Source: Spirochaetaceae bacterium (GTDB lineage Bacteria > Spirochaetota > Spirochaetia > Treponematales > Rectinemataceae). From it: a DNA stretch of 58,900 nt. Positions 2,442-44,647 of the stretch are shown piece after piece (positions within the stretch are counted from its first letter, which is position 1; every line of letters starts with the position of its first letter). The notes below the pieces were generated by a model, which saw only the letters and a program-made list of their open reading frames with translations, was not told the DNA's origin and did no database searches. The position numbers and the translations under genes were made by a program. The stretch is taken from positions 1 through 58,900 of the forward strand of contig JAJFUL010000296.1 in the NCBI GenBank assembly GCA_021372425.1. The letters are read 5' to 3'.

Positions 2442-2443
2442 CT

Positions 2444-3235: not shown

Positions 3236-3328
3236 ACATGGCTTAGGGCTTGACCATATTTCTGAGCATGATTACCCTGAGCAAGGCGGTGGAACCTTAA
3301 TAAGCATTTCCGCCAGGAGAGTAACCAT

Positions 3329-3910: not shown

Positions 3911-4971
3911 TGAACAAGGTCATCTTGAAGGCGCAGGACCTGGATGGTTACCTGACTGAAGAGGACACTGGCAATATTGCACGGATGGATGGGCTTTATC
4001 GCCAGGCGATGGTCTCCTTCAACATCCTCAATACGGGCAAGTCGAAGCAGGAAACCAGGAAGGAAGAGACAAGGCTGATAGACCTGTACAATACGATGGG
4101 AAACCTCATGCAGGAAATCTGCAGGAAGGAGCCCCGTATCCAGGTCTATTCCTTCGTGAGCCCCCAGGAGAACCACGGCGAGGCCTCCCGTCTCATCGCG
4201 AAACTTCGCGACATCAAAACGGGGCGAAACGAATTTGTCTACTACATTCAGCGCGCCTTCGAAATGCTGTTCAATCTCGCGTACGGTGCACGCACTTCAC
4301 AGAAGAACTACCTCATCGTCAAGACTCCCGTCACCATTCCTGTGCAGAATTATGCCGTCCACAAGATCCCCAACCTCGACGAACAGCTCAGCAATTCCGT
4401 GATGTGCGTCATGCTCCGGGGCGCACTCCTGCCTTCGATGATCATTTCGAAGGAAATCCAGGAGTATTCCTCCTCAGGCTATCTCACGCCCTTTGCGCTT
4501 TTCAAGATCAAGCGGGATGACACGAAGAGCGAAGATACGATGGAATATATCCTCGATCTCGATCGTTCCTATTTCAATATCGAGGAGCTGAATGGCAAGG
4601 ATCTTCTCTTTGCTGACCCGATGAACGCGACAGGCGGCTCGCTTGTCACAATCGTGAAATTCCTCCAGAGCAAGGGCATAAAGCCCAGGTCCATAAAATT
4701 CTTCAACGTGATTTCCGCGCTGAAGGGCAGCCTCCGCGTTGTGCGGGCCATCGAGAATGTCACGATATACACGCTCTGGATGGACCCTGCGCTCAACGAG
4801 AGCGCTTATATCATGCCGGGCCTGGGTGATGCAGGCGATCGCATCAACGGCGTGGACGAGGACGAACATCCGCGCGACATGCTGAGGCTCGTGGCCGATT
4901 ACGGCACAAACATAACGGGGCTCTACCGCTCGCAGATCAGGATCATCGAGGAGACGGTCCTGCACCGATAA
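3910..4971 (+). CDS. Uracil phosphoribosyltransferase-like protein with an N-terminal extension of ~95 aa
   Basis: PRPP loop [13 protein letters not shown] and UPRT signature [15 protein letters not shown] at 3910 overlaps the pduL stop (TGATG). Confidence 0.7.
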
Positions 4972-5783: not shown

Positions 5784-5856
5784 GACGGGACCTTTCTTGC
5801 CCCTACTTGCGTGATGGGATTTTTGCCTTTAGGATGTGAGGTCGAGAGGTGAAACA

Positions 5857-29663: not shown

Positions 29664-32126
29664 CTACTCGTCCAGGAATCGCTCGACTTCCTTCGCAATG
29701 GCCGGCAGGCCGTCGGCGAGAAGGCGGCAGTGTGGGAGGCTGGCCACGAAAAGTTGGCCGTAGCGGGCGGTCACGAGACGGGGGTCCAGGGTCACGACGA
29801 TGCCGCGGTCGAAGGAATGGCGGATGAGCCTTCCGAAGCCCTGCTTGAACTTGATGATCGCCTCGGGGACGCTGATTTCCATGAAGGAGTTGCCTCCGGC
29901 AGCGTCGACGGCCTGCGAGCGCGCCTCCTGAACCGGATCGCTCGGCACCCTGAAGGGCAACTTGGTCATGATGACCATCGAAAGCGTCTCTCCGGGCGCA
30001 TCGATACCTTCCCAGAAAGAATCCGTCGCGAAAAGAACGCTGGAAATGTCATTCTTGAACATGGTCAGGAGGCGCGACCTCTCATCCATGCCTTGGCGCA
30101 GGCAAGTGATACCCATCGATTCCATCACCGGCTTCGCCTGTTCGAATGAAGAGGCCAGCAGTTCGTAGCTGGTGAACAATACAAGCGCCCTGCCCCTGGA
30201 GGCTTTCAGCAGGCTGATGACGGCATCGCCGACATATGCCTTGAACTGCTCCTTGTTTCTCTGCGGATTGGGCGCTGTCTGGTCTATCGCAAGCAGGGCA
30301 TTCGTCGAAAAGGGGAAGGGAGATGAGTAGATTTTCGTTGAAACATCCTCGCGCCGCCGGTCTATGCCTATCGGCTTCATCCAGAAGTCAAAGGATTCAC
30401 TGACCGTGAGAGTAGCCGATGTGCAGACTACCGTCCTGATCTTCCCGAACAGACTGGCTCCAAGCAAGGTTGCCACGCTCAGCGGCGTCTCGTTGAAAGT
30501 GATGTAAATTTCCTTCTGGCTGGTCCTGCTTTTCTCAATCCAGAAAATCGTGTCCTTGTGTGTTTCGAAATCCTTGAATTGAGCGATGGTATCCGCCAGT
30601 TCGTTGATGCTCCGGAGAGCGATCTGTGTCTCGAGTACGACAGCGTCCTGCGCTCGCATTTCCGGAAGGCTGGCGAGAGCGGCCGTAAGGGTTTCCGTGA
30701 TAGAGAGCAGGTTTCGTTCGACCTTGCCCAAGGGCTCGCAGAGCGAAGTGGCGACCTCATCGGTCTTTTCGCGGATCCAGAGGCTGTTTTCCTGCCTGAT
30801 GAGACCGATAGCCATGGCTTCCAGGTCAGAGAAGGCCGCAAAGCTGTCCTTCACGAGATTTTCGATCGATATGATGATTTTCGCATCGATTTCCTGAATC
30901 AGGCTGAGCCTCTGCAACAGTCCATATTCCCTGTTCCGTTTCTTCCGCGACAGGCGCGCGAGCTTGCGATAGAGGCCAAATCGCGAAAAGCTCTCGGTGA
31001 AGAGGCTTGTGGCGCTCGACTCGATCGAATGAGCTTCATCTACGACCAGGGCGTTGTATGCAGGCAGGATCGATGTCTGTTCCGTACCCGAACTGTGCTT
31101 CCGCGATGCAATGTCGGCGAAGAGCAAATGATGGTTGACGATGAGTATCTGTGCATCCGCGCAGTCTTTCCTTACTTTGATTATGTGGCAAGACTCCCTG
31201 TGCGGACAGCGGATCGATAGACAATTGTCGGATTCGGAACAAATCGTGTTCCAGATTGAATCATCCACGTGGAAAGACAGGTCAGCCCTATCGCCACTTC
31301 CTCCTCTTTCGTCCCAGGAAGCGATCTTCCTGATCGGGCTGTCTTCTGCGAGGAAGAGTCCTTCTTCTTCAAGGACTTCAGAGAGTCGCCGTCTGCAGAT
31401 GTAGTTTCCCCGCCCCTTTATGAGGACTGCCTTGGGTTTTTTCCGGAAAATCGAGGAAACAAGAGGAAGGTCTTTGCTGAAGAGTTGATCCTGCAGATTG
31501 ATGGTCGCCGTCGAGATTACGACTTTTTCGTCATTACCCAAAGCCCAGGCAAGCGCAGGGACGAGATAGGCGAAGGATTTCCCGACGCCAGTTCCCGCCT
31601 CTGCCGCCAATATCCCACCCTGGTTGAAGACCGAGCTGACATCCTGAGTCATGGCGATCTGGGAGGGACGCGGCTCGAAGGATTTCATCTTCTGCGAAAG
31701 CTTGCCACCTGCCTCCAGAACGCTGGCGAGGCCTTCCTCGTCCAGGAGCTTGTGCTGATGTCGTTTCACAGGTTCCGCGACGATATAGAGCAAGCTTACT
31801 TCATTGTTGACGATGTAGCTGCCCACGCCATAGCTACCCGCTTCCGCGGCTATCGAGACGTCCGCATCCGATGGCATGAGGTGACCAGATGGATGGTTGT
31901 GGATAAGTACCGAGCCTTTTTCAAAATAGGACTGAATCGCAGGAACTGCATCAGAGGTTCCACGGGCGACAACATCGATCATGTCGACGAGGCCAGCCGC
32001 GTCAAGGTGCCCAATGGCGAAAATTTCGTTGCCTCCGGCCGACTCGATGGCATCTTTAAGTTCTCCGATCAGGGAGACCGCGAGACGCTCTCCTGCAGGC
32101 ACGCTGGCGCTGTGTTTTGCTGACAT
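29664..32126 (-). CDS. RadC-like JAB/MPN domain fused to a DinG/XPD-family Fe-S DNA helicase
   Basis: Complete JAMM motif E77...HNHPSGHLMPSDAD (31860-31901). Walker A AEAGTGVGKS, DEAH box VVDEAHSIE, Cys cluster CRRR...CSESDNCLSIRCPHRESC, C-terminal helicase motifs (FWEGID, QGFGRLIR). Start taken at ATG 32126 (MSAKHS), which overlaps the upstream stop (TGATG). Confidence 0.8.
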   Translation of the reverse strand: MSAKHSASVPAGERLAVSLIGELKDAIESAGGNEIFAIGHLDAAGLVDMIDVVARGTSDAVPAIQSYFEKGSVLIHNHPSGHLMPSDADVSIAAEAGSYGVGSYIVNNEVSLLYIVAEPVKRHQHKLLDEEGLASVLEAGGKLSQKMKSFEPRPSQIAMTQDVSSVFNQGGILAAEAGTGVGKSFAYLVPALAWALGNDEKVVISTATINLQDQLFSKDLPLVSSIFRKKPKAVLIKGRGNYICRRRLSEVLEEEGLFLAEDSPIRKIASWDERGGSGDRADLSFHVDDSIWNTICSESDNCLSIRCPHRESCHIIKVRKDCADAQILIVNHHLLFADIASRKHSSGTEQTSILPAYNALVVDEAHSIESSATSLFTESFSRFGLYRKLARLSRKKRNREYGLLQRLSLIQEIDAKIIISIENLVKDSFAAFSDLEAMAIGLIRQENSLWIREKTDEVATSLCEPLGKVERNLLSITETLTAALASLPEMRAQDAVVLETQIALRSINELADTIAQFKDFETHKDTIFWIEKSRTSQKEIYITFNETPLSVATLLGASLFGKIRTVVCTSATLTVSESFDFWMKPIGIDRRREDVSTKIYSSPFPFSTNALLAIDQTAPNPQRNKEQFKAYVGDAVISLLKASRGRALVLFTSYELLASSFEQAKPVMESMGITCLRQGMDERSRLLTMFKNDISSVLFATDSFWEGIDAPGETLSMVIMTKLPFRVPSDPVQEARSQAVDAAGGNSFMEISVPEAIIKFKQGFGRLIRHSFDRGIVVTLDPRLVTARYGQLFVASLPHCRLLADGLPAIAKEVERFLDE

Positions 32127-35059
32127 CAGTACGACACTCCCAGGCCAAAATCGATCATATGGCTGACTTTCGCAAGATCCGGTCTGAAGATCAGCGAAAG
32201 TTCGATGGATGGTTCGATATGAAGCATTGATGCCATACCTGCAAGGATTGTGCAATCGGTGCTCAGGCGGAGGAAGGCCGATGAAGGGGCCTCGACCTGG
32301 CTGTCCAGCTCGAGAAGCGAAGCGCGGAATCCTCCGAAAAGGGAGGCCCGCCGGAAAGACAGGGCGGGCAGGAATGGTAGCCTTATCTGCTTAAGCGAAG
32401 GCGCGGCTTCGAAGGTGGCGAGGCGGGCTTCCGCCTCGCCGAAGAGGTACCATGGCGATTCTGCGGCCAGGGCTGCGTATTCACGATAAACAGGATATGC
32501 CGGGGGCAGGCTTGAAACATAACTTTTCCCGCCGCCCTCGAGAAGACGGCCTGCCGGCTGGCATGACAGCCCACTCCCCAGGGCGCAAGTTCCCTCGACA
32601 GAGAACCTGAGCGCAGGCGCAGGGATCGCAAGCTCAAGCCCTGCTGAGGCTCCCCAGCCAGAAGCGATGCCGGGTATGGTTTCATAGTCGACAGCTGCCT
32701 GTACCGCAAGGCCTTTTTCGTCGAAGGGAGCGAAAGTGGAGTTCCTCATCGTCGTATAGCCTATGCTGATCCGCGAGCCGATATTTGCATAGGCATAGTC
32801 TGGCGCAAGGAATTTGCCGGCATTGTAGTCTTCCTGGACGCCGGAAATGCCTGCCTGAAACTCTGTCCATGCCCTGCGCCACAGAGGGAGGAGCGACCAG
32901 GTCAACTTGTCCCTGATTGTCAGGCTGGAAAGGCGCTGGGCCGATTGTGTCTGCGTATCCAGGGCAGGGCCGTCTTCTAGGGAGATATTCAGGTACTGCC
33001 TGTCGATCTGGAAGCCGAGGGAAAAGGCGAGATCCGGGGCAGAGATCTGGTAGTTCCATCCAGCGAGAGCAATCCATGCAGCCCTTTCCGTCAGGTCACT
33101 CCCCTCGATCTGGATTCCCGCGGACTGACCATTGGCATAAGGATAGCGGGAGCTGGAGCCCATAGCGGGGAAAAGTGCAGGCGAGGCAATCCTGAAGCCT
33201 GCTTGTGTGGCCGCCCCGTTTGCTTCTGAAACAGCCCCGCCAGTCTTCAATGCCGCGCCATCAGTTTCTGACAGCTCTACCCAGTCCGTATCAACGCAGT
33301 CGAAATCCCTGGCAAGGGCCTGGCTGTCGAGCCGCATCCAGCGGAGAGGCCTCTCCCCGCCAGGGAGATGGGCTCTGTAAAACACAATATTGTCTGTAGT
33401 TATGACTGGTTCATGGATACCGCCTTCAGGTGGATCCTTCTGCAGGAAAAGCTGCCATTTGCCATCAGGAGCCTTGCACTTCTGGATGATCGCAAGCCTT
33501 GCGAGGCCATCCCCCTGGGTTGTGGAGAGGGCGAGCCTGATGGTGGAGTCTCCTTCCTGATGTCCGCTGCTCTCCTGGACAGAAAGCGAGCGGACTATCG
33601 CCGGCGCATCACGCAGCAACTCGAAGTTCCCTGCTGCATCCTGTCTTGCCGGGACAATCTGCGAGCCCCTGCGCAGCAGCCCGTAAAGCCAAACTGATCC
33701 TGCGCTTGCCCCGGACGCGGTTGGCGCTGGTCCTTCGAACCCGGCTCCCTCCTGCATGGCCGGCAACCATTGTTCCACATTAGGTTCTCTGTCCTTCTGC
33801 AGGGAAAGCCTTCCGCTTTCGAAATCGAAGCGATACTTGGCCTGGATGATTTCTCCGTGCGAACCACTACGCACCCAGTCCACCACAAGCTGCCTGCCAT
33901 CACTGGATGCGCCGAGCCTTTCTATCAGGTTGTCGGCGGCAAACAGGCGGCTGGGGCTCTTTTCGGTGCAGCCATTTTCCGAAGTCGCATCGGCGATGGA
34001 CAGCCTGAAAACCGCATTTTGTTCAAGGTCAACGTAGAAGAGTGAATCCCCACTTGCCGCAAATGCCCCGACCCGTCGACCGGCAACCTCGACCTCGGGG
34101 TCGCTTCTTCCGCATACCGCAGAAGTCTGCTCTGCGAGCCAGGCCATGAATTCTTTCCACAGCGCTTTTTCTGGGGTGCCTGTCAGCTCCTCGACGATGC
34201 CTTTGCTTACCAGTGTGCCGTCATAACCTTTCGAGAAATTGCCGTCCGAAGCCAGGGTCCAAAAGCGGGCGAGCGTTTCGGGGCCATTGCGCTCGACAAG
34301 AAACTGCGAGAACAGGGCTCCGTAGTGATATGCCATGCTTCCTGCGCCTGGGTAGTCATCAAGCCCCGAGACACTCCAGATCGAACCTGCCATACCGCCC
34401 CGGAGGTCAGAAAAAACAGGTTCCAGGGCGGAAGGATCGTGAAGCCGTCCAGTATTCCCGTCGTCATTCTCAGGGATGCAGCCTGGTGTCACGGTGCTGG
34501 CATTGCTTTCCACCCAGACAGCCGTGCCCTCCAGCACGGCATCGGGCATCATCCAGATCGCGGGACTGATGAAATCACCGAAAATCCTGGCCAGCAAGGC
34601 CATGAGGGGAGACCGCATGTTCAGTGTCACTGTATGTGTAAGTTCATGCAAGAAAGTATAATAGAGTTCATCATCCATCGATGCAAGCTCATTCGTCATG
34701 TTGTTTTCTGCCAGATAGAGGACGATCCGGTTGGAGGGATAGGGGATGGAGTAACCATTCAGGTAAGGACTGCGGTCCGACAGCAGGACTGGAATTCTGT
34801 CCTTTCCCCAACTGTGGGGATTCAGCTTGATTCCGAAAAAGCTGTTCAGTTCATCGAGCATCGGATCCGCAAACCTGGCCAGGCGCAGCGCGGGTTCCTC
34901 CAAGCCGGCAGGGTAATAGATATCGAAGGATCTGGTCTGGATGTGGGTAAGGGTATCCAGGCCACTGATGTTCTGCGCTGCACAGAGGCTCGTCGCCAGG
35001 AGAAGACCAAAGAGAATGGCGACAGAAGTGACCGCTCCATGAAAGCGCGCATTCTTCAC
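32126..35059 (-). CDS. 977-aa secreted protein with an N-terminal peptidase-MA-like HExxH domain, a large middle region and a C-terminus ending in an aromatic residue
   Basis: Signal peptide MKNARFHGAVTSVAILFGLLLATSLCAAQ. HELTH at 34634-34648, followed about 35 aa later by LEGTAVWVES (gluzincin-type third ligand context). The last residues FGLGVSY resemble an outer-membrane beta-barrel terminus. GTG start with GGAGG 8 nt upstream. Confidence 0.7.
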   Translation of the reverse strand: MKNARFHGAVTSVAILFGLLLATSLCAAQNISGLDTLTHIQTRSFDIYYPAGLEEPALRLARFADPMLDELNSFFGIKLNPHSWGKDRIPVLLSDRSPYLNGYSIPYPSNRIVLYLAENNMTNELASMDDELYYTFLHELTHTVTLNMRSPLMALLARIFGDFISPAIWMMPDAVLEGTAVWVESNASTVTPGCIPENDDGNTGRLHDPSALEPVFSDLRGGMAGSIWSVSGLDDYPGAGSMAYHYGALFSQFLVERNGPETLARFWTLASDGNFSKGYDGTLVSKGIVEELTGTPEKALWKEFMAWLAEQTSAVCGRSDPEVEVAGRRVGAFAASGDSLFYVDLEQNAVFRLSIADATSENGCTEKSPSRLFAADNLIERLGASSDGRQLVVDWVRSGSHGEIIQAKYRFDFESGRLSLQKDREPNVEQWLPAMQEGAGFEGPAPTASGASAGSVWLYGLLRRGSQIVPARQDAAGNFELLRDAPAIVRSLSVQESSGHQEGDSTIRLALSTTQGDGLARLAIIQKCKAPDGKWQLFLQKDPPEGGIHEPVITTDNIVFYRAHLPGGERPLRWMRLDSQALARDFDCVDTDWVELSETDGAALKTGGAVSEANGAATQAGFRIASPALFPAMGSSSRYPYANGQSAGIQIEGSDLTERAAWIALAGWNYQISAPDLAFSLGFQIDRQYLNISLEDGPALDTQTQSAQRLSSLTIRDKLTWSLLPLWRRAWTEFQAGISGVQEDYNAGKFLAPDYAYANIGSRISIGYTTMRNSTFAPFDEKGLAVQAAVDYETIPGIASGWGASAGLELAIPAPALRFSVEGTCALGSGLSCQPAGRLLEGGGKSYVSSLPPAYPVYREYAALAAESPWYLFGEAEARLATFEAAPSLKQIRLPFLPALSFRRASLFGGFRASLLELDSQVEAPSSAFLRLSTDCTILAGMASMLHIEPSIELSLIFRPDLAKVSHMIDFGLGVSY

Positions 35060-36966: not shown

Positions 36967-38199
36967 ATGTACGATTCGGTCAAGGGTGAACTGGCGCAGA
37001 AGCTCGCCGCCATCCGGAATGAAGGCCTCTACAAGGATGAAAGGATAATCGTCTCGCCGCAGGGAGCCTTGATCAGGGTGAACGACGGTGCGGAAGTGCT
37101 CAACTTCTGCGCGAACAACTATCTTGGCCTGGGCAATGACGAAAGCATCCGAAAGGCTGCTGTCGATGCCATGGATAAATGGGGTTATGGACTTTCCTCC
37201 GTCCGCTTCATCTGTGGGACACAGGCTCCGCACAAGGTGTTGGAACGAAAGGTCGCCGAATACCTGGGGACCGAGGACGCGATTCTCTTCTCTTCCTGTT
37301 TTGACGCAAACGGGGCAGTTTTCGAGCCTCTGCTCGATGAGGACTGCGCCATCATCACCGACAGTCTGAACCACGCTTCGATCATCGATGGCGTGAGACT
37401 CTGCAAGGCAAAACGCTGGGTTTTCAAGCACGCCGACATGCGCGACATAGAGGAACTTGATCCCGACACAGGCAAGACGGCCAAGGGGCTCGAGCGCTGC
37501 CTCAAGGAAGCCAAGGATGCGCGCATCCGGATGATTGCCACCGATGGTGTCTTCTCCATGGATGGCGATATTGCCAATCTGAAAGGAATCTGCGATCTGG
37601 CGGAAAAATACAACGCGCTCGTCATGGTGGATGATTCCCATGCGACAGGTTTCGTGGGCAAGACCGGCCGCGGCACCTGGGAATACTGCGGCGTGAAGGG
37701 CAGGGTGGACATTATCACCACAACCTTTGGCAAGGCCTTGGGTGGCGCTTCTGGTGGCGTCATTGCCTCGCGCAAGGAAATTGTCGAGTACATGCGGCAG
37801 AAGGCCAGACCCTATCTCTTCTCCAACACCGTCGCGCCTGCCATTGTCGGTGGAACCACGAGGGCGCTCGACATGCTGAGTTCATCGACGGTATTGAGGG
37901 ACAAACTCGAGGCGAATACGATCCGTTTCCGCGAGAAGATGACGGCCGCTGGTTTCGACATCAGGCCGGGCGTGCATCCAATCGTCCCCGTCATGCTCTA
38001 TGACGAGAAGCTGGCCCATGTCATGGCCGACGAGCTCCTAGACGAGGGCATCTACGTGATCGGCTTCTCCTTCCCAGTCGTGCCGCGCGGCAAGGCCAGG
38101 ATTCGCGTGCAGATTTCGGCTGCCCACGACTTCGACCAGATCGACAAGGCTGTGGCAGCCTTCACCGTGGTCGGGAGGAAGCTTGGCGTGATAAAATGA
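36967..38199 (+). CDS. kbl: Glycine C-acetyltransferase (2-amino-3-ketobutyrate CoA ligase)
   Basis: [38 protein letters not shown] (PLP Lys), typical alpha-oxoamine synthase. The length and end match Kbl. Confidence 0.9.
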
Positions 38200-38365: not shown

Positions 38366-38680
38366 ATGCCTACGTATGAATATGAATGCCGTGCTTGCCA
38401 CCATACTTTCGAGAAATTCCAGTCCATGTCGGACGAGCCCGTGAAGGTATGCCCAAAATGTGGCAGCGCCGTCCGCAGAAAAATCGGCGGCGGATTAGGG
38501 GTTATCTTCAAAGGGTCGGGATTTTATTGCACCGATTCGAAAAAGACAAGCTCGGCGGCATTGACTGATTCGTCGTCCGGTTCCTCATCTGTTTCAAAGG
38601 AAAATACGGCAACGGCCACCGCGGGAGCAGCCACGGGCGCTGTATCCAGCCCTTCGCCGGGCGGCGGATCAAAAGCCTGA
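38366..38680 (+). CDS. FmdB-family zinc-ribbon protein with a Ser/Ala/Gly-rich tail
   Basis: MPTYEYECRACHHTFE...CPKCGS is the canonical FmdB/CxxC_CxxC_SSSS N-terminus. Confidence 0.8.
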   Translation: MPTYEYECRACHHTFEKFQSMSDEPVKVCPKCGSAVRRKIGGGLGVIFKGSGFYCTDSKKTSSAALTDSSSGSSSVSKENTATATAGAATGAVSSPSPGGGSKA

Positions 38681-39623: not shown

Positions 39624-40775
39624 TTGCGAGACATTCCTATTTTCCATGTGTTACTATTCCATAAGGAGGTGCAAAGCCCAACAATCAAGCGAGGAGGCGT
39701 CCACAAATTGGAGAAAGCCAGGGAATTGTTTGGCTCTCAAAGAATGCTTGTCGTGGCGAATGGACCTGAAAACGAAAGTATTCGTTCCGTAGACTACGAG
39801 CGATTCGACAGGCTCTGCAAAATCCTGAAGGCCGAAGGGGCCCAGGCGTCATGGAATTTCGTCGATTCCATCGAGACGCTTTCTTCGTTGCTTGAAATGG
39901 CAAAGCCCAGCCTAGTCTTGAGTTGTGTTGATCACCTGCCCGGAAAAAGCTGGAAAAGAGGGGAGGCCGTCCCTCAAAATCTGGCGAAAATCAATGTTCA
40001 TGACTGGTTTGAAAAGAGACACATTGCCTATGTGGGTTCTACTCCCGATGTCATCGAGCTGGCGCTTTCCAAGTCGGCGCTCAAGGAAAAATTCATTGCA
40101 GATGGCATCCTGACACCGGAATTTCTTACCTGCGGGTCATTCGATAAGATCCCCGGATTGACAGGTGCCGGATTGCCGCCATTCCCCTGCATAATCAAGC
40201 CCTTGGCCTCGGGCAATTCCCGGGGCATCGCCGATGATTCGGTTGTTTTCGACGAAGCCTCGCTGCACAGGAAAATTGGCCAAGTCCAGGACAAATATCC
40301 GAATATCCTCATTGAGCAGTATCTGGGAATATATCCGGATTTTCGCGAATTCACCTGCGCCTGCATCGGGAATGATGCGCATCGCCGGATAATGCCTGCC
40401 GAAATAGTCATGAAAACACCAAAGGCCATCCCTGTGGTCACCAATGCGGACAAAGAAGGACGCCGAACAGCGGCAATCAGGATCGATGATGCATACCTTC
40501 GCGGCCAGGCCGTCGATTTTGCTTCGCGCATTTTCCGGTCCGCTGGTATCCGGGATTATTCACGATGTGACATGGTTTATGCCGGTGACCGTTTCTGGGC
40601 CATAGAAGTGAATGGGCAACCCATGATTCCCGACGACTGGTTCAAGGCATGCTCGGAAAACGCAGGTCTGTCGGAATCACAATACTTGACTGGAATTTTC
40701 ATCGCTGCCCTGGAAAGGCTCCATCCAGACTTCCGACAGGAGGTTGAAGTGCGTGATGAAGATAGAAAGAAATGA
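39624..40775 (+). CDS. ATP-grasp ligase, D-alanine--D-alanine ligase-like
   Basis: CIIKPLASGNSRGI (compare Ddl VKPxxxGSSxGI), ILIEQYL, AIEVNGQPMI (compare EVNTxPG). The start is uncertain (TTG 39624, internal TTG after GAGGAGG, or ATG 39744). Confidence 0.7.
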   Translation: MRDIPIFHVLLFHKEVQSPTIKRGGVHKLEKARELFGSQRMLVVANGPENESIRSVDYERFDRLCKILKAEGAQASWNFVDSIETLSSLLEMAKPSLVLSCVDHLPGKSWKRGEAVPQNLAKINVHDWFEKRHIAYVGSTPDVIELALSKSALKEKFIADGILTPEFLTCGSFDKIPGLTGAGLPPFPCIIKPLASGNSRGIADDSVVFDEASLHRKIGQVQDKYPNILIEQYLGIYPDFREFTCACIGNDAHRRIMPAEIVMKTPKAIPVVTNADKEGRRTAAIRIDDAYLRGQAVDFASRIFRSAGIRDYSRCDMVYAGDRFWAIEVNGQPMIPDDWFKACSENAGLSESQYLTGIFIAALERLHPDFRQEVEVRDEDRKK

Positions 40776-42630
40776 CCGTATCGGACTGATTCATCCTGCA
40801 ATCGATGCCCATACGCTCGGCATCGTTTCGTTTTCCCAGCTAATGACTGAATGCCGGATACCTGCCATTGTTGCCGACGATGAAGTCAACCGGGACCTTG
40901 AACTTCTGGCTGCCGGAACAGGCGGAAGGGTCTTGTCGGCATGGCTGCAAAACGAGGGGATAAGCATACTTGGGTTCAGCTACCGACTCGATCCCGCCGA
41001 TGCGGCGGAAAAGTTCGGTCATCTTCATGATTTCCTCTGCAGGCAGAGGATGCTGGCAGCCTATGGCGGCAGAATCAGGGGACTGCTTTTTGCTGGTTTG
41101 CCGGAGGCCTGCTCGATGATCCAGGAGCGCTACCCTCGGGTTGGCTGCCTTTTCAAGGGCGATGAGACTCCCGAAGAGACGCTTGCCTTGCTCGGCATTT
41201 CGGTACAAATGCTGCCAGCATCACTTTATGGCGGGATGGGCTATGACACTGAGCGGATGCAGCTTGGCCGGGAAATCATTAATGCTGGTGACTATCTGGA
41301 TGAGCAACCTGCCCCTGCGGCAACATATCCCCAATTTGGGCAGAGGGGCGACACGGTCAATGCCCGGATCAGCAATTACGGGCAACGGGGCATGCTTCCG
41401 CTTATCCGCGTTCATGCGGGCCCTTATCTCCCGGACAGAAAGGAAGCCGTTGCGCTTTTCGGGGATTGGACCAGGACATTGGCATCGAGCGGGTTTCTCG
41501 ACGTACTGTCAATCGGGACTTCGCAGCTGACCCAGTCCAATTTTGGAGAAGACTGGCAGGGAAAAAACAATGGGGGCGGCGTACCGATCAACAGCGCAGC
41601 CGAATTTGCCGGGGTATGGGAGGCTGCCAGGCCTATGCTCGTGCGGACGTATGCTGGCAGCAACAATATCATATCGCTTGCAAGGCTCTACGAAGAGACG
41701 ATCGATAATGCCTGGCACGCACTGTCTTTCTGGTGGTTCTGTCAGATTGATGGCAGAGGGCCGAACAGGGTCCTTGCGAATCTGCATGAGCATTTCGCTG
41801 CGATAAAGTATATCGCTTCGACAGGAAAAGCTTTCGAGCCAAATGTACCGCATCATTTTGCTTTCCGTGGGTCTGATGATCTCAGCTATGTGGTTTCAGG
41901 CTATGTGGCGGCAAAGGCCGCAAAGAAATGCGGCATCCACAGCCTGATCCTGCAGACAATGCTGAATACGCCAAAGACCACCTGGGGCATACAGGACCTG
42001 GCGAAAGCCCGCGCGCTCACCAGGCTTGTACGGACGCTGGAAGATGAAAGTTTCAAGGTCTTCCTGCAGCCAAGGGGAGGGCTGGATTATTTCTCGCCCG
42101 ACCCCGCAAAGGCGAAGGCGCAGCTGGCTGCAGTCACCATGCTGATGGATGATATTGAGCCCGACTCGGTTTCCAGCCCGCAGATCATTCATGTTGTCAG
42201 CTATTCCGAGGCATGCAGACTCGCTGATCCGCCAATAATGATAGAGAGCATTAAGATTGCGCGTTATGCGCTTCATCAGTACAGAAAAGCAAAAACCTGC
42301 GGTTTCCTGTTCGGCTTCCTGAATGGGGAAGAGCTGAAATACAGGGAATCTGCACTTCTCGATGATGCAAGGAAGATGGTCTCGACACTGGAAAGCTTGA
42401 TTCCGGACCTTTATTCTCCGGAAGGATTCTACCGGATGATGGTCGCAGGGGTCTTTCCGCTTCCATGGCTTACATCCTGCAGGGAAGAATTCCCGGCCGC
42501 AGTCTCGATTCAGACAAAAATGGCTTGCGGCGGCATAAAGGCCGTAGACAGTGCCGGCCGAGTTCTTTTGATCGGCGAGCGCATAGCCATGATCACGGAG
42601 AATCTGAAGCGGCAAGAGGTCGGAGTGTAG
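40756..42630 (+). CDS. Putative cobalamin-binding-domain protein fused to a large (~480 aa) uncharacterised domain
   Basis: The N-terminal RIGLIHPAIDAHTLGIVS contains DxHxxG (40804-40821) in a flavodoxin-like beta-alpha pattern, with ...ILGFSYRL further on. I cannot assign the rest to a family. AGGAGG upstream. The gene overlaps the ATP-grasp stop. Confidence 0.6.
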   Translation: MKIERNDRIGLIHPAIDAHTLGIVSFSQLMTECRIPAIVADDEVNRDLELLAAGTGGRVLSAWLQNEGISILGFSYRLDPADAAEKFGHLHDFLCRQRMLAAYGGRIRGLLFAGLPEACSMIQERYPRVGCLFKGDETPEETLALLGISVQMLPASLYGGMGYDTERMQLGREIINAGDYLDEQPAPAATYPQFGQRGDTVNARISNYGQRGMLPLIRVHAGPYLPDRKEAVALFGDWTRTLASSGFLDVLSIGTSQLTQSNFGEDWQGKNNGGGVPINSAAEFAGVWEAARPMLVRTYAGSNNIISLARLYEETIDNAWHALSFWWFCQIDGRGPNRVLANLHEHFAAIKYIASTGKAFEPNVPHHFAFRGSDDLSYVVSGYVAAKAAKKCGIHSLILQTMLNTPKTTWGIQDLAKARALTRLVRTLEDESFKVFLQPRGGLDYFSPDPAKAKAQLAAVTMLMDDIEPDSVSSPQIIHVVSYSEACRLADPPIMIESIKIARYALHQYRKAKTCGFLFGFLNGEELKYRESALLDDARKMVSTLESLIPDLYSPEGFYRMMVAGVFPLPWLTSCREEFPAAVSIQTKMACGGIKAVDSAGRVLLIGERIAMITENLKRQEVGV

Positions 42631-42655
42631 TAGCCCGGACGCACGAGGAGAAAAC

Positions 42656-43801
42656 ATGGATAATGATTCGGTATGGACTGAAGCGATAGCCAGAGTGGAC
42701 AAGGCAGCGGAAAAAGGCGACAGACTCGTCTGGTGCGTCGTCGGCGCCGGTAACGGCGGCCTGTCGATGGCGGGGCACCTCGGCCTGAAAGGCTTTCGCG
42801 TCCATCTCTACAACAGGACAGAAGAGCACCTCGCCGCCGTGAAATGGTTCAAGGGAATCGAGGTGGAAGGCGCCGTCAGCGGTACCGGCCCGATAGACCT
42901 TGCCACTTCGTCGATGGAGGATGCACTGGAAGAGGCAGATGTCATCATGATCGTGACGCCGGCGACCGCGCATTTTCCGCTGGCCTGTTGCATGGCGCCG
43001 TTTCTGAAGACTGGCCAGATTGTCATCCTCAATCCCGGCAGAACTGGAGGCGCTCTCGAGTTCAGGGAAGCTCTGCGGAGCATGAACTGCCCCGCGCGGC
43101 CAGTCATCGTGGAAGCACAGACATTCATCTATGCCTCGAGGATGGTCAACAGACATAAAGGTCATATCTATGGGATCAAGAACAGCGTCGCAGTGAGCGC
43201 GCTTCCTTCTTTCCTCACTCCATCCGTCCTCAGGGTCATAAACCAGGCTTTTCCGCAATTCACCGCCGGGAGCAATGTCCTTGCGACAAGTCTCGAGAAT
43301 ATCGGTGCGGTGTTCCATCCAGCGCTTACCTTGCTCAATGCAGGGTGGATCGAATCCACGGGCGGCGACTTCGAGTATTACCTGCAAGGGATTTCGCCTT
43401 CCGTCGCGATACTACTGCAGAGCATCGACGATGAACGGCTCGCCATAGCGAATGCATTGGGGATCAGGAGCGTCTCGGCCAGGGAGTGGCTCTATCTGAC
43501 CTATGATTCTTCAGGGGATGACCTGTATCACGCGATAAAGGCTACGGTCAGCTATGTCGGAATCAAGGCTCCGACCAGTATCAATCACCGATACATCTGG
43601 GAGGATGTCCCGATGAGCCTTGTTCCCATGTCTTCCATCGGCGCAATGCTCGGAATAAAGACACCCACGATTGATCTGGTCATCCATCTGGCGGAATTGA
43701 TGACAGGCGAGGATTACAGGGAAAAAGGCAGAACGGTGCGCCGCTTGGGCATCGAAGGACTTTCTATCGAGCAGATCCACAGGCTCGTGGCTGAGGGCTG
43801 A
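42656..43801 (+). CDS. NAD(P)-dependent opine dehydrogenase (octopine/nopaline dehydrogenase family)
   Basis: N-terminal VVGAGNGGLSMAGHLGLKG Rossmann. The central and C-terminal regions are typical of the Octopine_DH family (NIGAVFHPALTLLNAGWIE, ...YIWEDVP). GAGGAG 5 nt upstream of the ATG. Confidence 0.8.
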   Translation: MDNDSVWTEAIARVDKAAEKGDRLVWCVVGAGNGGLSMAGHLGLKGFRVHLYNRTEEHLAAVKWFKGIEVEGAVSGTGPIDLATSSMEDALEEADVIMIVTPATAHFPLACCMAPFLKTGQIVILNPGRTGGALEFREALRSMNCPARPVIVEAQTFIYASRMVNRHKGHIYGIKNSVAVSALPSFLTPSVLRVINQAFPQFTAGSNVLATSLENIGAVFHPALTLLNAGWIESTGGDFEYYLQGISPSVAILLQSIDDERLAIANALGIRSVSAREWLYLTYDSSGDDLYHAIKATVSYVGIKAPTSINHRYIWEDVPMSLVPMSSIGAMLGIKTPTIDLVIHLAELMTGEDYREKGRTVRRLGIEGLSIEQIHRLVAEG

Positions 43802-43853
43802 GGCCTGCAGCGCAGAGCCTCAGGAATACTTTTCCAGGATATGGAGGATAGTA

Positions 43854-44540
43854 ATGCAGGAAGCAAAATTGCTATTGGAGTCATACTTGTCCGCCTTGCC
43901 GCCATTCTTTGCGGCCTTGCTGACATTCCTGATCGGGTGGGCGATCGCGGGAGCGATCAAATTCCTCCTGCCAAAGCTGCTCGTGCTGCTGCGGTTTGAC
44001 AGGCTCTGCAACAAGATCGGATTGACCGCCTTTCTTGAAAAAGGCAAGGTCAAGCACAACCCTTCGGAACTGCTGGGCATCCTTGTATTCTGGATACTGA
44101 TGGTAGTGACACTCATCAATACTATTTCATTGCTTGACAATAATATAGCATCTTCAATCCAGGAAACGATGACTTCAGTCTTTCCCCATCTCCTTGCAGC
44201 GGGGCTGATCGTCATCATCGGGGTTATCATCGTCACCTTCCTCTCAAATTTTTTCGTAACAATAGCCAGGAATGCGGCCATGAAAAATCCGGAGCTTATT
44301 GGCAAGGCCATAAAGACCCTGGGCAGCATCATTGTGCTAATCATCGCACTGGAACAGCTGGGAATGGGGGAAACGATCATGAGCGCCTTGCTTGTCATCA
44401 TGTTCGCTGCCATTGCCTTGGGCCTCGCCCTGGCCTTCGGTTTGGGCTGCAAGGACATGGCCAGGAAAGCTGCCGAGGGTTTTATCCGGAACTTAACGGA
44501 GAAGGAGCGGAACAAACAGGGGACCGACCTGGAGGGATGA
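43854..44540 (+). CDS. Integral membrane protein with repeated conserved-TM-helix motifs (MscS-related TM_helix type)
   Basis: Four hydrophobic helices with internally similar flanks, and a charged C-terminus. The family call is tentative. Confidence 0.55.
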   Translation: MQEAKLLLESYLSALPPFFAALLTFLIGWAIAGAIKFLLPKLLVLLRFDRLCNKIGLTAFLEKGKVKHNPSELLGILVFWILMVVTLINTISLLDNNIASSIQETMTSVFPHLLAAGLIVIIGVIIVTFLSNFFVTIARNAAMKNPELIGKAIKTLGSIIVLIIALEQLGMGETIMSALLVIMFAAIALGLALAFGLGCKDMARKAAEGFIRNLTEKERNKQGTDLEG

Positions 44541-44605: not shown

Positions 44606-44647
44606 TATGCAGAATAATTGACATTATAAGCATAATTATACTATTAT
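44606..44647 (+). promoter_or_regulatory. Candidate argG promoter with an overlapping ARG-box-like site
   Basis: TTGACA (44618-44623), 18 nt spacer, TATTAT (44642-44647). The ATG follows 7 nt after the -10 and there is no SD. TATGCAGAATAATTGACA (44606-44623) matches the E. coli ARG-box consensus TNTGAATWWWWATTCANW at most positions. Confidence 0.35.

What the first reader, a model, noticed from the sequence alone, without database searches (positions are those of the whole stretch)
39624..43801. Unassigned three-gene operon: ATP-grasp ligase, a DxHxxG (cobalamin-type) protein with a large unknown domain, and an opine dehydrogenase
Three co-directional genes are tightly coupled. The start of gene 2 (40744-40756) overlaps the gene 1 stop at 40775, and a 25-nt gap with GAGGAG precedes gene 3.

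- Gene 1 has Ddl-like ATP-grasp motifs (IKPLASGNSRGI, EVNGQP).
- Gene 2 opens with a B12-binding-domain-like strand-loop carrying IDAHTLG (DxHxxG, 40804-40821). It continues for about 480 aa that I cannot place in any characterised family. By eye there is only a faint, unverifiable resemblance to the TIM-barrel large subunits of carbon-skeleton mutases.
- Gene 3 is a clear octopine/nopaline-type dehydrogenase (GAGNGG Rossmann).

I know of no described pathway that combines these three activities. The neighbours are suggestive. An atypical E2/CAT-fold acyltransferase is divergently transcribed upstream. A small membrane protein and argG-argH lie downstream, and arginine is the classic amino substrate of octopine-type enzymes.

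Working hypothesis (inference): a B12-dependent rearrangement, an ATP-dependent amide ligation and a reductive N-carboxyalkylation together make or catabolise an opine-like modified amino acid or dipeptide.
Basis: partly seen in the sequence, partly recalled or inferred. Interest (0 to 1): 0.75.

Follow-up and report, generated by a model that had tools for sequence, protein, structure and literature searches.

The report
Uncharacterised B12 mutase–opine dehydrogenase operon
The window carries a very widespread but never-characterised operon that always pairs a vitamin-B12-type radical "mutase" with an opine dehydrogenase; in relatives it is switched by the osmotic-stress messenger c-di-AMP, so it probably makes an unknown stress-protective amino-acid derivative.

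Summary
**Observation: confirmed.**
- Gene 1 (39744-40775) is a Ddl-like ATP-grasp.
- Gene 2 (40756-42630) has an N-terminal His-on B12-binding domain. Its "unknown" ~480 aa fold as a glutamate-mutase-E-like TIM barrel (Foldseek 4e-12; replicated in a sister clade at 3e-15).
- Gene 3 (42656-43801) is a true opine dehydrogenase (1bg6, 1.5e-72).

**What tools add.**
- The conserved core is ODH + mutase. They are adjacent in 77/82 loci of this clade, in 82/85 loci of a sister clade only ~27% identical, and in both fusion variants examined.
- The third enzyme is interchangeable but always an ATP-dependent amide-former.
- A small MscS-type membrane protein (43854-44540) belongs to the module (44/82 loci).
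- argG-argH and the CAT-like gene do not belong.
- A c-di-AMP OFF-riboswitch precedes the operon in 22/72 sister-clade loci and in one locus of this clade. The window has none.

**Best reading.** This is a c-di-AMP/osmotic-stress-linked, B12-dependent synthesis of an amidated opine-type solute. The substrate and product are unknown.

**Prior work.** The gene association was predicted computationally in 2009 (PMC2667541). No paper in the searched corpus has characterised it since.

**Verdict.** A new family of AdoCbl-type isomerase in an orphan pathway. Interest 0.72.

The parts
39744..40775 (+). Gene 1: Ddl-like ATP-grasp carboxylate-amine ligase, 343 aa from the corrected start (the mechanical ORF starts at 39624)
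   Evidence: PF07478 at 4e-11. It scores 49.6 bits against the NCBIfam Ddl model, far below the 245-bit cut-off. PDB matches are DdlB at 1e-7 and VanA. The start is supported by alignment with the L009 and L096 homologues. A homologue is adjacent to the mutase in 26/82 loci of this clade.
40738..40743 (+). AGGAGG ribosome-binding site for gene 2, lying inside the 3' end of gene 1 (translational coupling)
   Evidence: Read directly from the sequence.
40756..42630 (+). Gene 2: single-chain AdoCbl-type isomerase homologue, 624 aa, in a GlmS-GlmE-like fused architecture
   Evidence: The AF2 model has pLDDT 86.5 and pTM 0.88. Foldseek top hits are glutamate mutase E (4e-12), lysine 5,6-aminomutase (1e-8) and MMUT (3e-6). 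Hhalign of the superfamily profile against a GlmE profile gives 83% probability, E 8.5e-6. It has more than 2,900 homologues.
40756..41160 (+). Gene 2 residues 1-135: flavodoxin-like cobalamin-binding domain. The DAHTLG motif is at 40804-40821 and the His19 codon at 40810-40812.
   Evidence: The family profile matches solved B12-binding domains: 4jgi at 5e-6, 2yxb at 5e-5, plus MttC, MetH and HcmB. The DxHxxG, SxL and GG positions are in register. His19 and Gly22 are invariant.
41386..42627 (+). Gene 2 residues ~211-624: eight-stranded TIM barrel plus C-terminal helical/beta cap, GlmE-like. Invariant Glu485 (42208-42210) aligns with GlmE Glu330.
   Evidence: Secondary structure comes from the AF2 model, fold matches from Foldseek, and the residue alignment from hhalign.
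42645..42650 (+). GAGGAG ribosome-binding site for gene 3, in the 25-nt gap
   Evidence: Read directly from the sequence.
42656..43801 (+). Gene 3: NAD(P)H opine dehydrogenase, CENDH-like, 381 aa
   Evidence: PF02317 at 1e-47. 1bg6 matches at 1.5e-72 over the full length and Pecten octopine DH at 3e-16. The His (AVFHP) and Arg/Asp (HRYIWED) line up with the corresponding residues of both solved enzymes. An ODH gene is adjacent to the mutase in 77/82 loci.
43854..44540 (+). Small MscS-type membrane protein, 228 aa with about 5 TM segments and no MscS beta or C-terminal domains
   Evidence: PF05552 at 1e-10, with two repeats, and NCBIfam 'msc' at 6e-17 (below its cut-off). It lies on the same strand within 3 kb of the mutase in 44/82 loci. 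In PVC-group and WOR-3 loci it sits between the ODH and the mutase.

Best explanation
Positions 39744-44540 encode a four-part module.

**Shown**
1. Gene 2 is a single-chain member of the adenosylcobalamin radical-isomerase superfamily. It has an N-terminal His-on B12-binding domain fused to a TIM barrel like that of glutamate mutase subunit E. It belongs to a new family, about 14% identical to GlmE.
2. Its obligate partner across the whole superfamily is a CENDH-type opine dehydrogenase (gene 3). The two ORFs usually overlap or abut.
3. A third, interchangeable enzyme is always an ATP-dependent amide-former. Here it is a Ddl-like ATP-grasp. Elsewhere it is an AsnB-like synthetase lacking the glutaminase Cys, another ATP-grasp, or an ATP-grasp fused to the mutase and followed by a class-I glutamine amidotransferase.
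4. In this clade a small MscS-type membrane protein is part of the unit.
5. In relatives the operon lies behind a c-di-AMP riboswitch.

**Inferred**
- The module is expressed when c-di-AMP is low, meaning hyperosmotic stress or demand for K+ and osmolytes.
- It then makes an opine-type solute, an N-(1-carboxyalkyl) amino acid.
- The mutase rearranges the carbon skeleton of a glutamate-family amino acid, or of its N-carboxyalkyl derivative, by radical 1,2-migration.
- The ODH reductively condenses the amino group with a 2-oxo acid using NAD(P)H.
- The ligase converts a carboxylate to an amide, which lowers the net negative charge.
- The membrane protein acts as a release valve or tension sensor.

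The order of the steps and the identities of the substrate and product are unknown.

**My confidence by level**
- Fold, cofactor class and pairing: about 0.85.
- Physiological role in osmotic or c-di-AMP stress: about 0.45.
- Glutamate-type substrate: about 0.25.
For: **Fold and cofactor**
- Two independent AF2 models from clades about 27% identical both have AdoCbl isomerases as top PDB matches. The window protein hits GlmE at 4e-12. The sister-clade protein hits GlmE at 3.4e-15 (RMSD 6.8 Å over 448 columns), then ornithine and lysine aminomutases, MCM, HCM and IcmF.
- The N-terminal domain matches solved B12-binding domains in register.
- His19 is invariant.
- Hhalign to GlmE gives 83% probability and aligns GlmE Glu330 with the invariant Glu485.
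- Distant relatives hit PF06368 and PF02310, and some are fused to the MutL/GlmL reactivase-like domain.
- In Rikenellaceae a cobalamin riboswitch plus a TonB-dependent receptor abut the gene.

**Pairing with ODH**
- 77/82 loci in this clade.
- 82/85 loci in the sister clade.
- Both fusion variants examined.
- The two clades are homologous over their full length, E 5.5e-71.

**ODH chemistry**
- 1bg6 matches at 1.5e-72, and the His and Arg/Asp align with those of both solved enzymes.

**Third step is an amide-former**
- In this clade: Ddl-like ATP-grasp in 26 loci, AsnS-like in 19 and ATP-grasp_4 in 3, out of 82.
- In the sister clade an AsnS-like gene is present in 31/85 loci.
- The AsnS-like partner has a full AsnB-type synthetase domain (about 1e-45) but starts MAAIAG, with no Cys nucleophile.
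- L177 encodes a mutase-ATP-grasp fusion followed by a GATase.

**Osmotic and c-di-AMP link**
- RF00379 lies directly upstream of the operon in L093 (117 bits) and L007 (90 bits).
- A custom model found 22 strong hits in 80 sister-clade loci, all on the coding strand just ahead of the ODH. Rfam confirmed 10 of 10 tested, at 79-111 bits.
- L093 has promoter, aptamer, terminator and then the ODH start.
- In L171 the riboswitch precedes AsnS-ODH-mutase.
- MscS-type proteins are present in 48/82 loci. A PTS-EIIA domain is present in 16/82, fused to the ODH where the domain structure was checked.
- Glutamate/aspartate transporters and an Asp/Glu racemase are neighbours.
- A review describes the c-di-AMP riboswitch regulon as K+ transporters, amino-acid transporters, cell-wall remodelling and osmotic-shock proteins (PMC7266159).
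Against: - No riboswitch is present in the window itself, even at E<=1. In this clade only 1 of about 80 loci has one. The c-di-AMP link therefore reaches the window only by homology.
- c-di-AMP riboswitches also control cell-wall genes, so the riboswitch does not single out osmolyte synthesis.
- No substrate is identified. The first half of the barrel cannot be aligned to GlmE by sequence. Conservation of the substrate-binding Arg66, Arg100, Arg149 and Glu171 is therefore untested.
- The Asp of DxHxxG is Glu in some members and Cys in the whole sister clade, which is unusual for His-on enzymes.
- No adenosyltransferase or other B12 gene lies in the window.
- A simple opine carries net negative charge and has no precedent as a bacterial compatible solute.
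- The locus samples are 'best 80' sets that include some near-duplicates, so the frequencies are approximate.
Confidence: 0.45

Rival explanations
1. Cell-envelope building block. The module makes a modified D- or branched amino acid or dipeptide, for example a 3-methylaspartate-type or N-carboxyalkyl residue. This is ligated and amidated for incorporation into peptidoglycan or another wall polymer, under c-di-AMP control.
For: - c-di-AMP riboswitches commonly control cell-wall remodelling genes (PMC7266159).
- The partners resemble wall enzymes: a Ddl-like ATP-grasp, an AsnB-like amidating enzyme and an Asp/Glu racemase next door in 10 spirochaete loci.
- One relative is fused to Peptidase_M15_3.
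- A D-Ala-D-Ala carboxypeptidase, and Mur ligase plus FemAB genes, lie near sister-clade operons.
Against: - The wall-related neighbours are sporadic, on the opposite strand or lineage-restricted.
- The invariant core contains no Mur, Fem or transpeptidase component.
- MscS-type proteins and PTS-EIIA domains fit osmotic control better.
- Gene 1 scores far below the Ddl family cut-off.
Confidence: 0.2
2. Catabolic or fermentative route. The mutase rearranges an amino acid, as in the glutamate, lysine and ornithine fermentations. The ODH-family enzyme then oxidises the resulting amine, or acts as an NADH sink by forming opines as in invertebrate anaerobiosis.
For: - The nearest structural relatives (glutamate mutase, ornithine and lysine aminomutases) all work in anaerobic amino-acid fermentations (the pathway roles are established knowledge).
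- In those pathways an amine dehydrogenase follows the aminomutase.
- The hosts are mostly anaerobes.
- Amino-acid transporters lie nearby.
Against: - ATP-consuming ligases accompany the pair in about 59% of loci in this clade, which is unexpected for energy-yielding catabolism.
- No methylaspartase, thiolase or CoA-transferase partner is present.
- No invariant Lys for PLP is found in the B12 domain, so an aminomutase mechanism is unlikely.
- Control by a c-di-AMP riboswitch and the MscS partners are not explained.
Confidence: 0.12
3. Opine-type metallophore. Like staphylopine or pseudopaline, an opine dehydrogenase finishes a polycarboxylate chelator, here built on a mutase-rearranged amino acid and exported through the membrane protein.
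For: - Opine dehydrogenases (CntM type) finish known metallophores (established knowledge).
- The product would carry several carboxylates and an amine.
- A membrane protein is co-encoded.
- A TonB-dependent receptor sits next to the mutase in Rikenellaceae.
Against: - The loci contain no nicotianamine-synthase-like enzyme, no ABC importer and no dedicated exporter.
- The Rikenellaceae receptor lies behind a cobalamin riboswitch, so it is probably a B12 importer.
- The ODH is CENDH-like and did not match any CntM-type metallophore dehydrogenase among PDB sequences at E<=1e-3.
Confidence: 0.04
4. Gene 2 is not a radical AdoCbl isomerase. The B12-like domain binds methylcobalamin for methyl transfer, binds no corrinoid at all, or serves as a sensor.
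For: - The Asp of the Asp-His-Ser triad is not conserved. It is D or E in this clade and Cys in the sister clade.
- The GG element reads FAGLP.
- No adenosyltransferase or reactivase lies in the window.
- Some database entries name relatives 'methionine synthase'.
- The single-sequence and family-only profiles gave no significant match to GlmE.
Against: - The best structural matches for two clades are exclusively AdoCbl isomerases, not corrinoid methyltransferase TIM barrels.
- Some relatives are fused to the MutL/GlmL reactivase-like domain.
- GlmE's ribose-binding Glu aligns with an invariant Glu.
- The axial His is invariant.
Confidence: 0.08

Closest known systems
Glutamate mutase (GlmS/MutS + GlmE/MutE, EC 5.4.99.1)
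   Same: - It has a His-on B12-binding Rossmann domain plus a TIM-barrel catalytic domain.
- It is the best PDB structural match for both clades.
- Hhalign gives 83% probability over the second half of the barrel and the C-terminal cap.
- GlmE Glu330 aligns with Glu485.
- Some relatives are fused to the GlmL/MutL-type protein.
   Different: - Here the enzyme is one polypeptide (S-E order) rather than two subunits.
- Identity is about 14-15%.
- The window protein does not hit PF06368.
- The first half of the barrel cannot be aligned, so the Arg claw and Glu171 are unverified.
- The partner is an opine dehydrogenase, not methylaspartase (compare the E. coli O157 cluster).
Lysine 5,6-aminomutase and ornithine 4,5-aminomutase
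   Same: - They are the second-best structural matches.
- In their pathways an NAD(P)-dependent amine dehydrogenase acts next (established knowledge).
   Different: These enzymes need PLP bound to a Lys of the B12-binding subunit. No invariant Lys exists in residues 1-135 of the gene 2 family.
N-(1-D-carboxyethyl)-L-norvaline dehydrogenase of Arthrobacter sp. 1C (CENDH, PDB 1bg6)
   Same: Gene 3 aligns over its full length at E 1.5e-72. The Rossmann motif, the His and the Arg/Asp are conserved.
   Different: As far as I know, the physiological role of CENDH is itself unknown. No mutase partner has been described for it. This is my recollection and was not tested here.
'Novel B12-dependent protein family' predicted by Zhang, Rodionov, Gelfand and Gladyshev 2009 (PMC2667541)
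   Same: The description matches. It has an N-terminal distant B12-binding domain. It is 'always adjacent to' pfam02317. D-Ala-D-Ala ligase and asparagine synthase lie nearby.
   Different: - That work covered 11 genomes in four phyla.
- It gave no fold for the large domain and did not place it in the mutase superfamily.
- It mentioned neither a c-di-AMP link nor a membrane partner.
- I infer that it is the same family from the description, not from accession numbers.
NAGGN osmolyte pathway (AsnO amidotransferase + Ngg ATP-grasp/GNAT)
   Same: It is a stress-induced solute pathway built from glutamate-family amino acids. It uses an AsnB-like enzyme and an ATP-grasp ligase to form amides that neutralise charge (established knowledge).
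   Different: It has no B12 enzyme and no opine dehydrogenase. This is an analogy of logic only. Homology was not tested.
Amide-containing crown-gall opines (heliopine/vitopine, succinamopine)
   Same: They are N-carboxyalkyl derivatives of glutamine or asparagine. They show that amidated opines exist in nature (established knowledge).
   Different: They are made in plant tumours by T-DNA enzymes. They involve no mutase and have no osmotic role.

Membership tests
AdoCbl-dependent isomerase superfamily (glutamate mutase-like) | Cobalamin-binding Rossmann domain with the DxHxxG...SxL...GG signature and an axial His | tested here: met
   The family profile aligns in register with 4jgi, 2yxb, MttC, MetH and HcmB. 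His19 and Gly22 are invariant and Ser75 is invariant. The GG element is represented by FAGLP, with Gly114 invariant. The Asp position varies: D or E here and Cys in the sister clade.
AdoCbl-dependent isomerase superfamily (glutamate mutase-like) | TIM-barrel catalytic domain of the GlmE, KamD or MCM type | tested here: met
   Foldseek gives 1cb7_B at 4e-12 for the window protein. For the sister-clade protein it gives 3.4e-15, with TM 0.65 (target-normalised) and RMSD 6.8 Å over 448 columns.
Glutamate mutase proper (EC 5.4.99.1) | Scores above the Pfam PF06368 (Met_asp_mut_E) threshold | tested here: not met
   The window protein has no Pfam hit. Only distant relatives score, at 19-27 bits around the 26.6-bit cut-off.
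Glutamate mutase proper (EC 5.4.99.1) | Substrate-binding Arg66, Arg100, Arg149 and Glu171 (residue numbers recalled from the 1CCW literature) | tested here: inconclusive
   The first half of the barrel does not align by hhalign. By eye, R218 in IRVHAG resembles R66 in QPRAG, and R297 in LVRTYAG resembles R149 in QARHG. A low-probability alignment gives the latter weak support. No equivalent of Glu171 is evident.
Glutamate mutase proper (EC 5.4.99.1) | Glu330, which binds the adenosyl ribose | tested here: met
   Hhalign aligns GlmE KVIVKTPHEA with gene 2 IIHVVSYSEA, placing Glu330 opposite the invariant Glu485. Lys326 aligns with Val481 and is not conserved.
Glutamate mutase proper (EC 5.4.99.1) | Separate S and E subunits, with glmL and methylaspartase in the operon | tested here: not met
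   Here the enzyme is a fused single chain and no methylaspartase was found in any locus inspected. Compare the E. coli O157 glmS-glmL-glmE-mal cluster.
Opine dehydrogenase (PF02317; CENDH and octopine DH type) | N-terminal GxGxxG Rossmann fold plus the C-terminal Octopine_DH helical domain | tested here: met
   PF02317 at 1e-47 with a GAGNGG motif. The alignment to 1bg6 covers the full length at 1.5e-72.
Opine dehydrogenase (PF02317; CENDH and octopine DH type) | Catalytic His plus the Arg/Asp pair (His212, Arg324 and Asp329 in Pecten OcDH; numbering from memory) | tested here: met
   AVFHP aligns with AVMHP of 1bg6, and HRYIWED aligns with TRYFFED of 1bg6 and NRYLTED of 3c7a.
D-alanine-D-alanine ligase | Scores above the NCBIfam Ddl family cut-off | tested here: not met
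   TIGR01205 scores 49.6 bits against a 245.65-bit cut-off. Gene 1 has the ATP-grasp fold with Ddl-like C-terminal motifs but is not a Ddl orthologue.
c-di-AMP riboswitch regulon (RF00379) | Aptamer upstream of the operon on the coding strand | tested here: not met
   The window has no hit at the gathering score or at E<=1. Among homologous operons the feature is met in L007 of this clade and in 22 of the 72 sister-clade loci that have enough upstream DNA.
MscS mechanosensitive channel | TM3 pore helix plus the beta and C-terminal domains (PF21088, PF00924, PF21082) | tested here: not met
   The window protein has only PF05552 TM-helix repeats. Full MscS genes with all three domains are found beside the operon in 7 of 82 loci.
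B12-dependent radical SAM enzymes | A CxxxCxxC cluster motif | tested here: not met
   Cys119 is the only invariant Cys, and no CxxxCxxC motif appears in the alignment.

The most novel reading that the evidence does not exclude
This would be the first cobalamin-dependent compatible-solute pathway. Under control of the osmotic second messenger c-di-AMP, a new family of AdoCbl radical mutase and an opine dehydrogenase convert a glutamate-family amino acid into a previously unknown class of branched, amidated opine osmolyte. The pathway would be used by thousands of anaerobic and thermophilic bacteria across more than a dozen phyla. A minimal MscS-like protein would serve as its dedicated release valve.
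Probability: 0.3. Interest if true: 0.88.

Novelty: new variant of a known kind. Interest (0 to 1): 0.72.

Why it matters
**A likely new B12 enzyme activity.** Only about a dozen AdoCbl-dependent isomerase activities are known. A new family with thousands of members, fixed to an opine dehydrogenase, almost certainly hides new radical chemistry and a new metabolite.

**A link to osmotic signalling.** The c-di-AMP link would tie vitamin B12 availability to osmotic or envelope stress physiology. It would also assign a function to one of the commonest unexplained gene sets behind the ydaO-type riboswitch.

**Directly testable.** The family occurs in cultured organisms: Caldanaerobacter subterraneus, Halothermothrix orenii, Tepidanaerobacter and Rectinema subterraneum.

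**A possible role for bacterial opine dehydrogenases.** These enzymes are used as biocatalysts for making chiral secondary amines. As far as I know, the role of CENDH in its own host has never been established.

Tried and rejected
**Led nowhere**
- Single-sequence searches of gene 2 against Pfam, NCBIfam and PDB sequences gave nothing.
- A profile of the close family alone against PDB sequences gave nothing.
- Hhalign of the close family against a single GlmE sequence gave 1.3% probability. Only the broadened superfamily profile against a GlmE profile reached 83%.
- Local and global hhalign on the first half of the barrel gave no usable alignment, so I could not map the GlmE arginine claw.
- The two-sequence covariance model found no further riboswitches in about 80 loci of this clade. 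Rfam on 10 more loci also found none. The window region has none at E<=1.
- Block 2010 and Nelson 2013, the ydaO gene-list papers, are not held. I could not check whether they list this operon.
- Of ten literature searches, only one found a paper on this gene association. That was the 2009 prediction, which one search found again. One other search located the c-di-AMP riboswitch review.

**Considered and rejected**
- Arginine as substrate through argG-argH. The adjacency is lineage-restricted and argG has its own promoter.
- The CAT-like acyltransferase as a member of the module. It appears in only 10 loci and is replaced by PCMT in Rectinema-type loci.
- A PLP-dependent aminomutase mechanism. 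The B12 domain has no invariant Lys.
- A B12-radical-SAM enzyme. There is no Cys motif.
- The ODH as a mere cobalamin reductase. It keeps the full opine-DH catalytic residues and has no flavin or metal site (inference).

Full report
**1.

Three co-directional ORFs lie at 39624/39744-40775, 40744/40756-42630 and 42656-43801.
- Gene 2's likely ATG (40756) is 12 nt downstream of AGGAGG (40738-40743) and 20 nt inside gene 1, whose stop is at 40773-40775.
- A 25-nt spacer containing GAGGAG precedes gene 3.
- Gene 1's true start is most likely ATG 39744, giving 343 aa. Two homologous ATP-grasps align from there.

Gene identities:
- Gene 1 hits Dala_Dala_lig_C at 4e-11 and DdlB at 1e-7. It falls far below the curated Ddl cut-off (49.6 against 245 bits). 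It is therefore a Ddl-like ATP-grasp but not a Ddl.
- Gene 3 is a genuine opine dehydrogenase. It hits PF02317 at 1e-47 and aligns over its full length with Arthrobacter N-(1-D-carboxyethyl)-L-norvaline dehydrogenase (1bg6, 1.5e-72). The His and the Arg/Asp pair are conserved.
- Gene 2 alone hits nothing in Pfam, NCBIfam or PDB sequences.

**2. What gene 2 is.**

It has more than 2,900 homologues, almost all unnamed. They form about 400 clusters at 50% identity. Two conserved peptides of the family occur in 442 of about 185,000 species-representative genomes. These include Spirochaetota, Planctomycetota, Verrucomicrobiota, Armatimonadota, Syntrophales, Bacteroidota, Firmicutes, Dehalococcoidales, Omnitrophota, WOR-3 and Gracilibacteria. 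One cultured organism, Rectinema subterraneum, is among them.

*The N-terminal domain binds cobalamin.*
- In an alignment of 32 homologues, His19, Leu21 and Gly22 of DAHTLG are invariant. The Asp is D or E.
- A superfamily profile aligns residues 1-~135 in register with solved cobalamin-binding domains (4jgi, 2yxb, MttC, MetH, HcmB). DxHxxG, SxL and the GG position all correspond.

*The large domain is a GlmE-like TIM barrel.*
- An AF2 model (pLDDT 86.5, pTM 0.88) shows a flavodoxin-like domain, a linker, an eight-stranded barrel and a C-terminal cap.
- Its best PDB matches are glutamate mutase subunit E (4e-12), lysine 5,6-aminomutase (1e-8) and human methylmalonyl-CoA mutase (3e-6). Generic TIM barrels follow.
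- As an independent replicate I modelled a Caldanaerobacter protein from a sister clade. This clade is about 27% identical and homologous over its full length (E 5.5e-71).
- That model's first ~25 matches are all AdoCbl isomerases. GlmE leads at 3.4e-15, with RMSD 6.8 Å over 448 columns. Ornithine and lysine aminomutases, MCM, HCM and IcmF follow.
- Its N-terminal domain matches isolated B12 domains at TM 0.83-0.85.
- At sequence level, the broadened profile against a GlmE profile gives 83% probability (E 8.5e-6). The match covers gene 2 residues 384-607 and GlmE residues 235-441. GlmE's ribose-binding Glu330 lies opposite the invariant Glu485.

*Other support for the superfamily assignment.*
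- Distant relatives score weakly on PF06368.
- Some relatives are fused to the MutL/GlmL reactivase-like domain, and one is fused to an ATP-grasp.
- In two Rikenellaceae loci a cobalamin riboswitch plus a TonB-dependent receptor follow the gene directly.

*Limits of the assignment.*
- The protein is not glutamate mutase itself.
- It is a single chain, about 14% identical, and fails PF06368.
- It has no methylaspartase partner.
- Its first half-barrel cannot be aligned, so the substrate-binding residues are unverified.
- No PLP-type Lys and no radical-SAM Cys motif is conserved.

**3. What the unit is.**

I analysed context in 82 non-redundant loci of this clade, counting genes on the same strand within 3 kb.

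| Neighbour of the mutase | Loci (of 82) |
|---|---|
| ODH | 77 |
| Any ATP-dependent ligase | 48 |
| - Ddl-like ATP-grasp | 26 |
| - AsnB-like synthetase | 19 |
| - ATP-grasp_4, with a DegT aminotransferase | 3 |
| Small PF05552 membrane protein | 44 |
| Full MscS | 7 |
| PTS-EIIA domain | 16 |

- The loci without an ODH are truncated contigs or the Rikenellaceae variant.
- The PTS-EIIA domain is fused to the ODH in the loci where the domain structure was examined.
- In PVC-group and WOR-3 loci the small membrane gene sits between the ODH and the mutase.
- The AsnB-like partner has a complete synthetase domain (about 1e-45 to AsnB) but a truncated glutaminase domain without the Cys nucleophile.

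The sister clade gave more than 7,000 database hits and includes Halothermothrix, Caldanaerobacter, Tepidanaerobacter and Melioribacter. It shows the same rule. ODH is directly upstream in 82 of 85 loci, and an AsnS-like gene is nearby in 31. ODH also precedes the mutase-ATP-grasp fusion, which is followed by a class-I glutamine amidotransferase. It precedes the mutase-MutL fusion as well.

The invariant core is therefore ODH + mutase, with an interchangeable ATP-dependent amide-forming step.

- argG-argH and the CAT-like gene co-occur only in about 10 close spirochaete relatives.
- argG has its own near-consensus promoter at 44618-44647.
- In relatives a racemase and an SDF transporter are inserted before argG.

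**4. Regulation in relatives.**
- Rfam finds a c-di-AMP riboswitch (RF00379) directly upstream of the ODH-mutase operon in two places. One is Caldanaerobacter (117 bits). The other is an Armatimonadota member of the window's own clade (90 bits).
- A model built from these two found 22 strong matches in 80 sister-clade metagenome loci. All lie on the coding strand just ahead of the ODH. In one case the match lies ahead of AsnS-ODH-mutase.
- Rfam confirmed 10 of 10 tested, at 79-111 bits against a threshold of 38.
- That is 22 of the 72 loci with enough upstream DNA. The figure is approximate, because the sample is similarity-ranked and contains some near-duplicates.
- In Caldanaerobacter the order is promoter, aptamer, 12-bp terminator hairpin with a T-rich tail, then the ODH start. 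That is the layout of an OFF switch.
- The window itself has no such element. Among about 80 loci of its clade, only the Armatimonadota locus does.

**5. Most likely function.**

[quoted passage not shown] From general knowledge, low c-di-AMP accompanies demand for K+ and osmolytes.

Other features point the same way:
- MscS-type proteins are present in 59% of this clade's loci.
- PTS-EIIA domains are associated with the ODH.
- Glutamate/aspartate transporters are neighbours: SDF in spirochaetes and GltS in Lutispora.

The best-supported reading is stress-induced synthesis of an opine-type solute:
- a radical 1,2-rearrangement of a glutamate-family skeleton by the mutase;
- NAD(P)H-dependent N-carboxyalkylation by the ODH;
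- ATP-dependent amidation that removes a negative charge;
- a minimal MscS-like protein acting as valve or sensor.

Which parts are shown and which are inferred:
- Shown: fold, cofactor class, pairing and riboswitch.
- Inferred: the physiological role, the order of steps and the substrate.

The main rival is a cell-envelope building block. It uses the same riboswitch evidence and the wall-like flavour of the ligase, amidase and racemase partners. Fermentation, metallophore and non-AdoCbl readings are less likely, for the reasons given under the rivals.

**6. Relation to what is known.**

[quoted passage not shown] They described it as 'always adjacent to' pfam02317, with D-Ala-D-Ala ligase and asparagine synthase nearby, and they called for experiments (PMC2667541). 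The association is therefore not new.

None of my ten literature searches found a later characterisation, a fold assignment or a c-di-AMP connection. However, paywalled papers and the original ydaO gene lists could not be read.

As far as I could check, this analysis adds:
- the GlmE-type barrel and membership of the AdoCbl isomerase superfamily;
- the scale and phyletic breadth of the family;
- the universality of the pairing across deep clades and fusions;
- the rule that the third enzyme is an interchangeable amide-former;
- the MscS-like partner;
- the c-di-AMP riboswitch.

**7. Verdict.**

This is a real, conserved, orphan pathway built around a new family of B12-type radical isomerase. 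I rate novelty as a new variant of a known kind and interest at 0.72.

Noticed in passing
L067:9965-10166 and L085:6880-7081: In two Rikenellaceae loci the mutase homologue has no ODH neighbour. It is preceded by small membrane proteins and two or three SAM-methyltransferase-like genes. A cobalamin riboswitch and a TonB-dependent receptor follow it. This may be a variant pathway or a B12-uptake island.
   Followed up: partly
alignment A7 (sister clade), residues 13-18 of P0452: The whole sister clade has C-V-H-V-A-G instead of DxHxxG. The Asp of the canonical Asp-His ligand pair is an invariant Cys. In the window's clade it is Asp or Glu. This is unusual for His-on cobalamin enzymes.
   Followed up: no
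window 44618-44647: A near-consensus sigma-70 promoter (TTGACA-18-TATTAT, 11 of 12 matches) lies immediately upstream of argG. It marks argG-argH as a separate transcription unit.
   Followed up: yes
window 32126-35059 (-) and 5836-7263 (+): Two long ORFs (977 aa and 475 aa) have no Pfam family at E<=1e-5. The 977-aa ORF has a counterpart at the same position in the syntenic relative L009, which also has no Pfam hit on record.
   Followed up: no
L096:8724-8838: An FMN riboswitch and an ECF-type S-component gene lie directly downstream of the Lutispora ATP-grasp-ODH-mutase operon. Upstream lie a YcbB-type two-component system and a Na+/glutamate symporter.
   Followed up: no
P0187 (732 aa; representative-library protein): This relative of the mutase carries a C-terminal Peptidase_M15_3 domain (the VanY / L-Ala-D-Glu peptidase type). 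It hints at D-amino-acid or cell-wall chemistry in at least one lineage.
   Followed up: no
L075:~1-4090: In a Candidatus Anammoximicrobium contig the ORF with ODH similarity upstream of the mutase is about 1,360 aa long. It may be a multi-domain fusion or an ORF-calling artefact.
   Followed up: no
window 38366-38680 (+): A zinc-ribbon protein (PF09723) with a long Ser/Ala/Gly-rich tail, together with the KBL-type aminotransferase at 36967-38199, is conserved upstream of the operon in about 13-15 spirochaete loci. Both are absent outside that lineage.
   Followed up: partly
L036:6058-6708 (-) and six similar Rectinema-type loci; L094:4896-5690: A protein-L-isoaspartate O-methyltransferase (PCMT) gene is divergent from the ATP-grasp in Rectinema-type loci. 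A PCMT-like methyltransferase sits just upstream of the ODH in Melioribacter. The recurrence across clades is unexplained.
   Followed up: no
L178:1-1047: An RtcB RNA ligase gene interrupted by an intein lies near the mutase-MutL fusion locus. It is unrelated to the finding.
   Followed up: no
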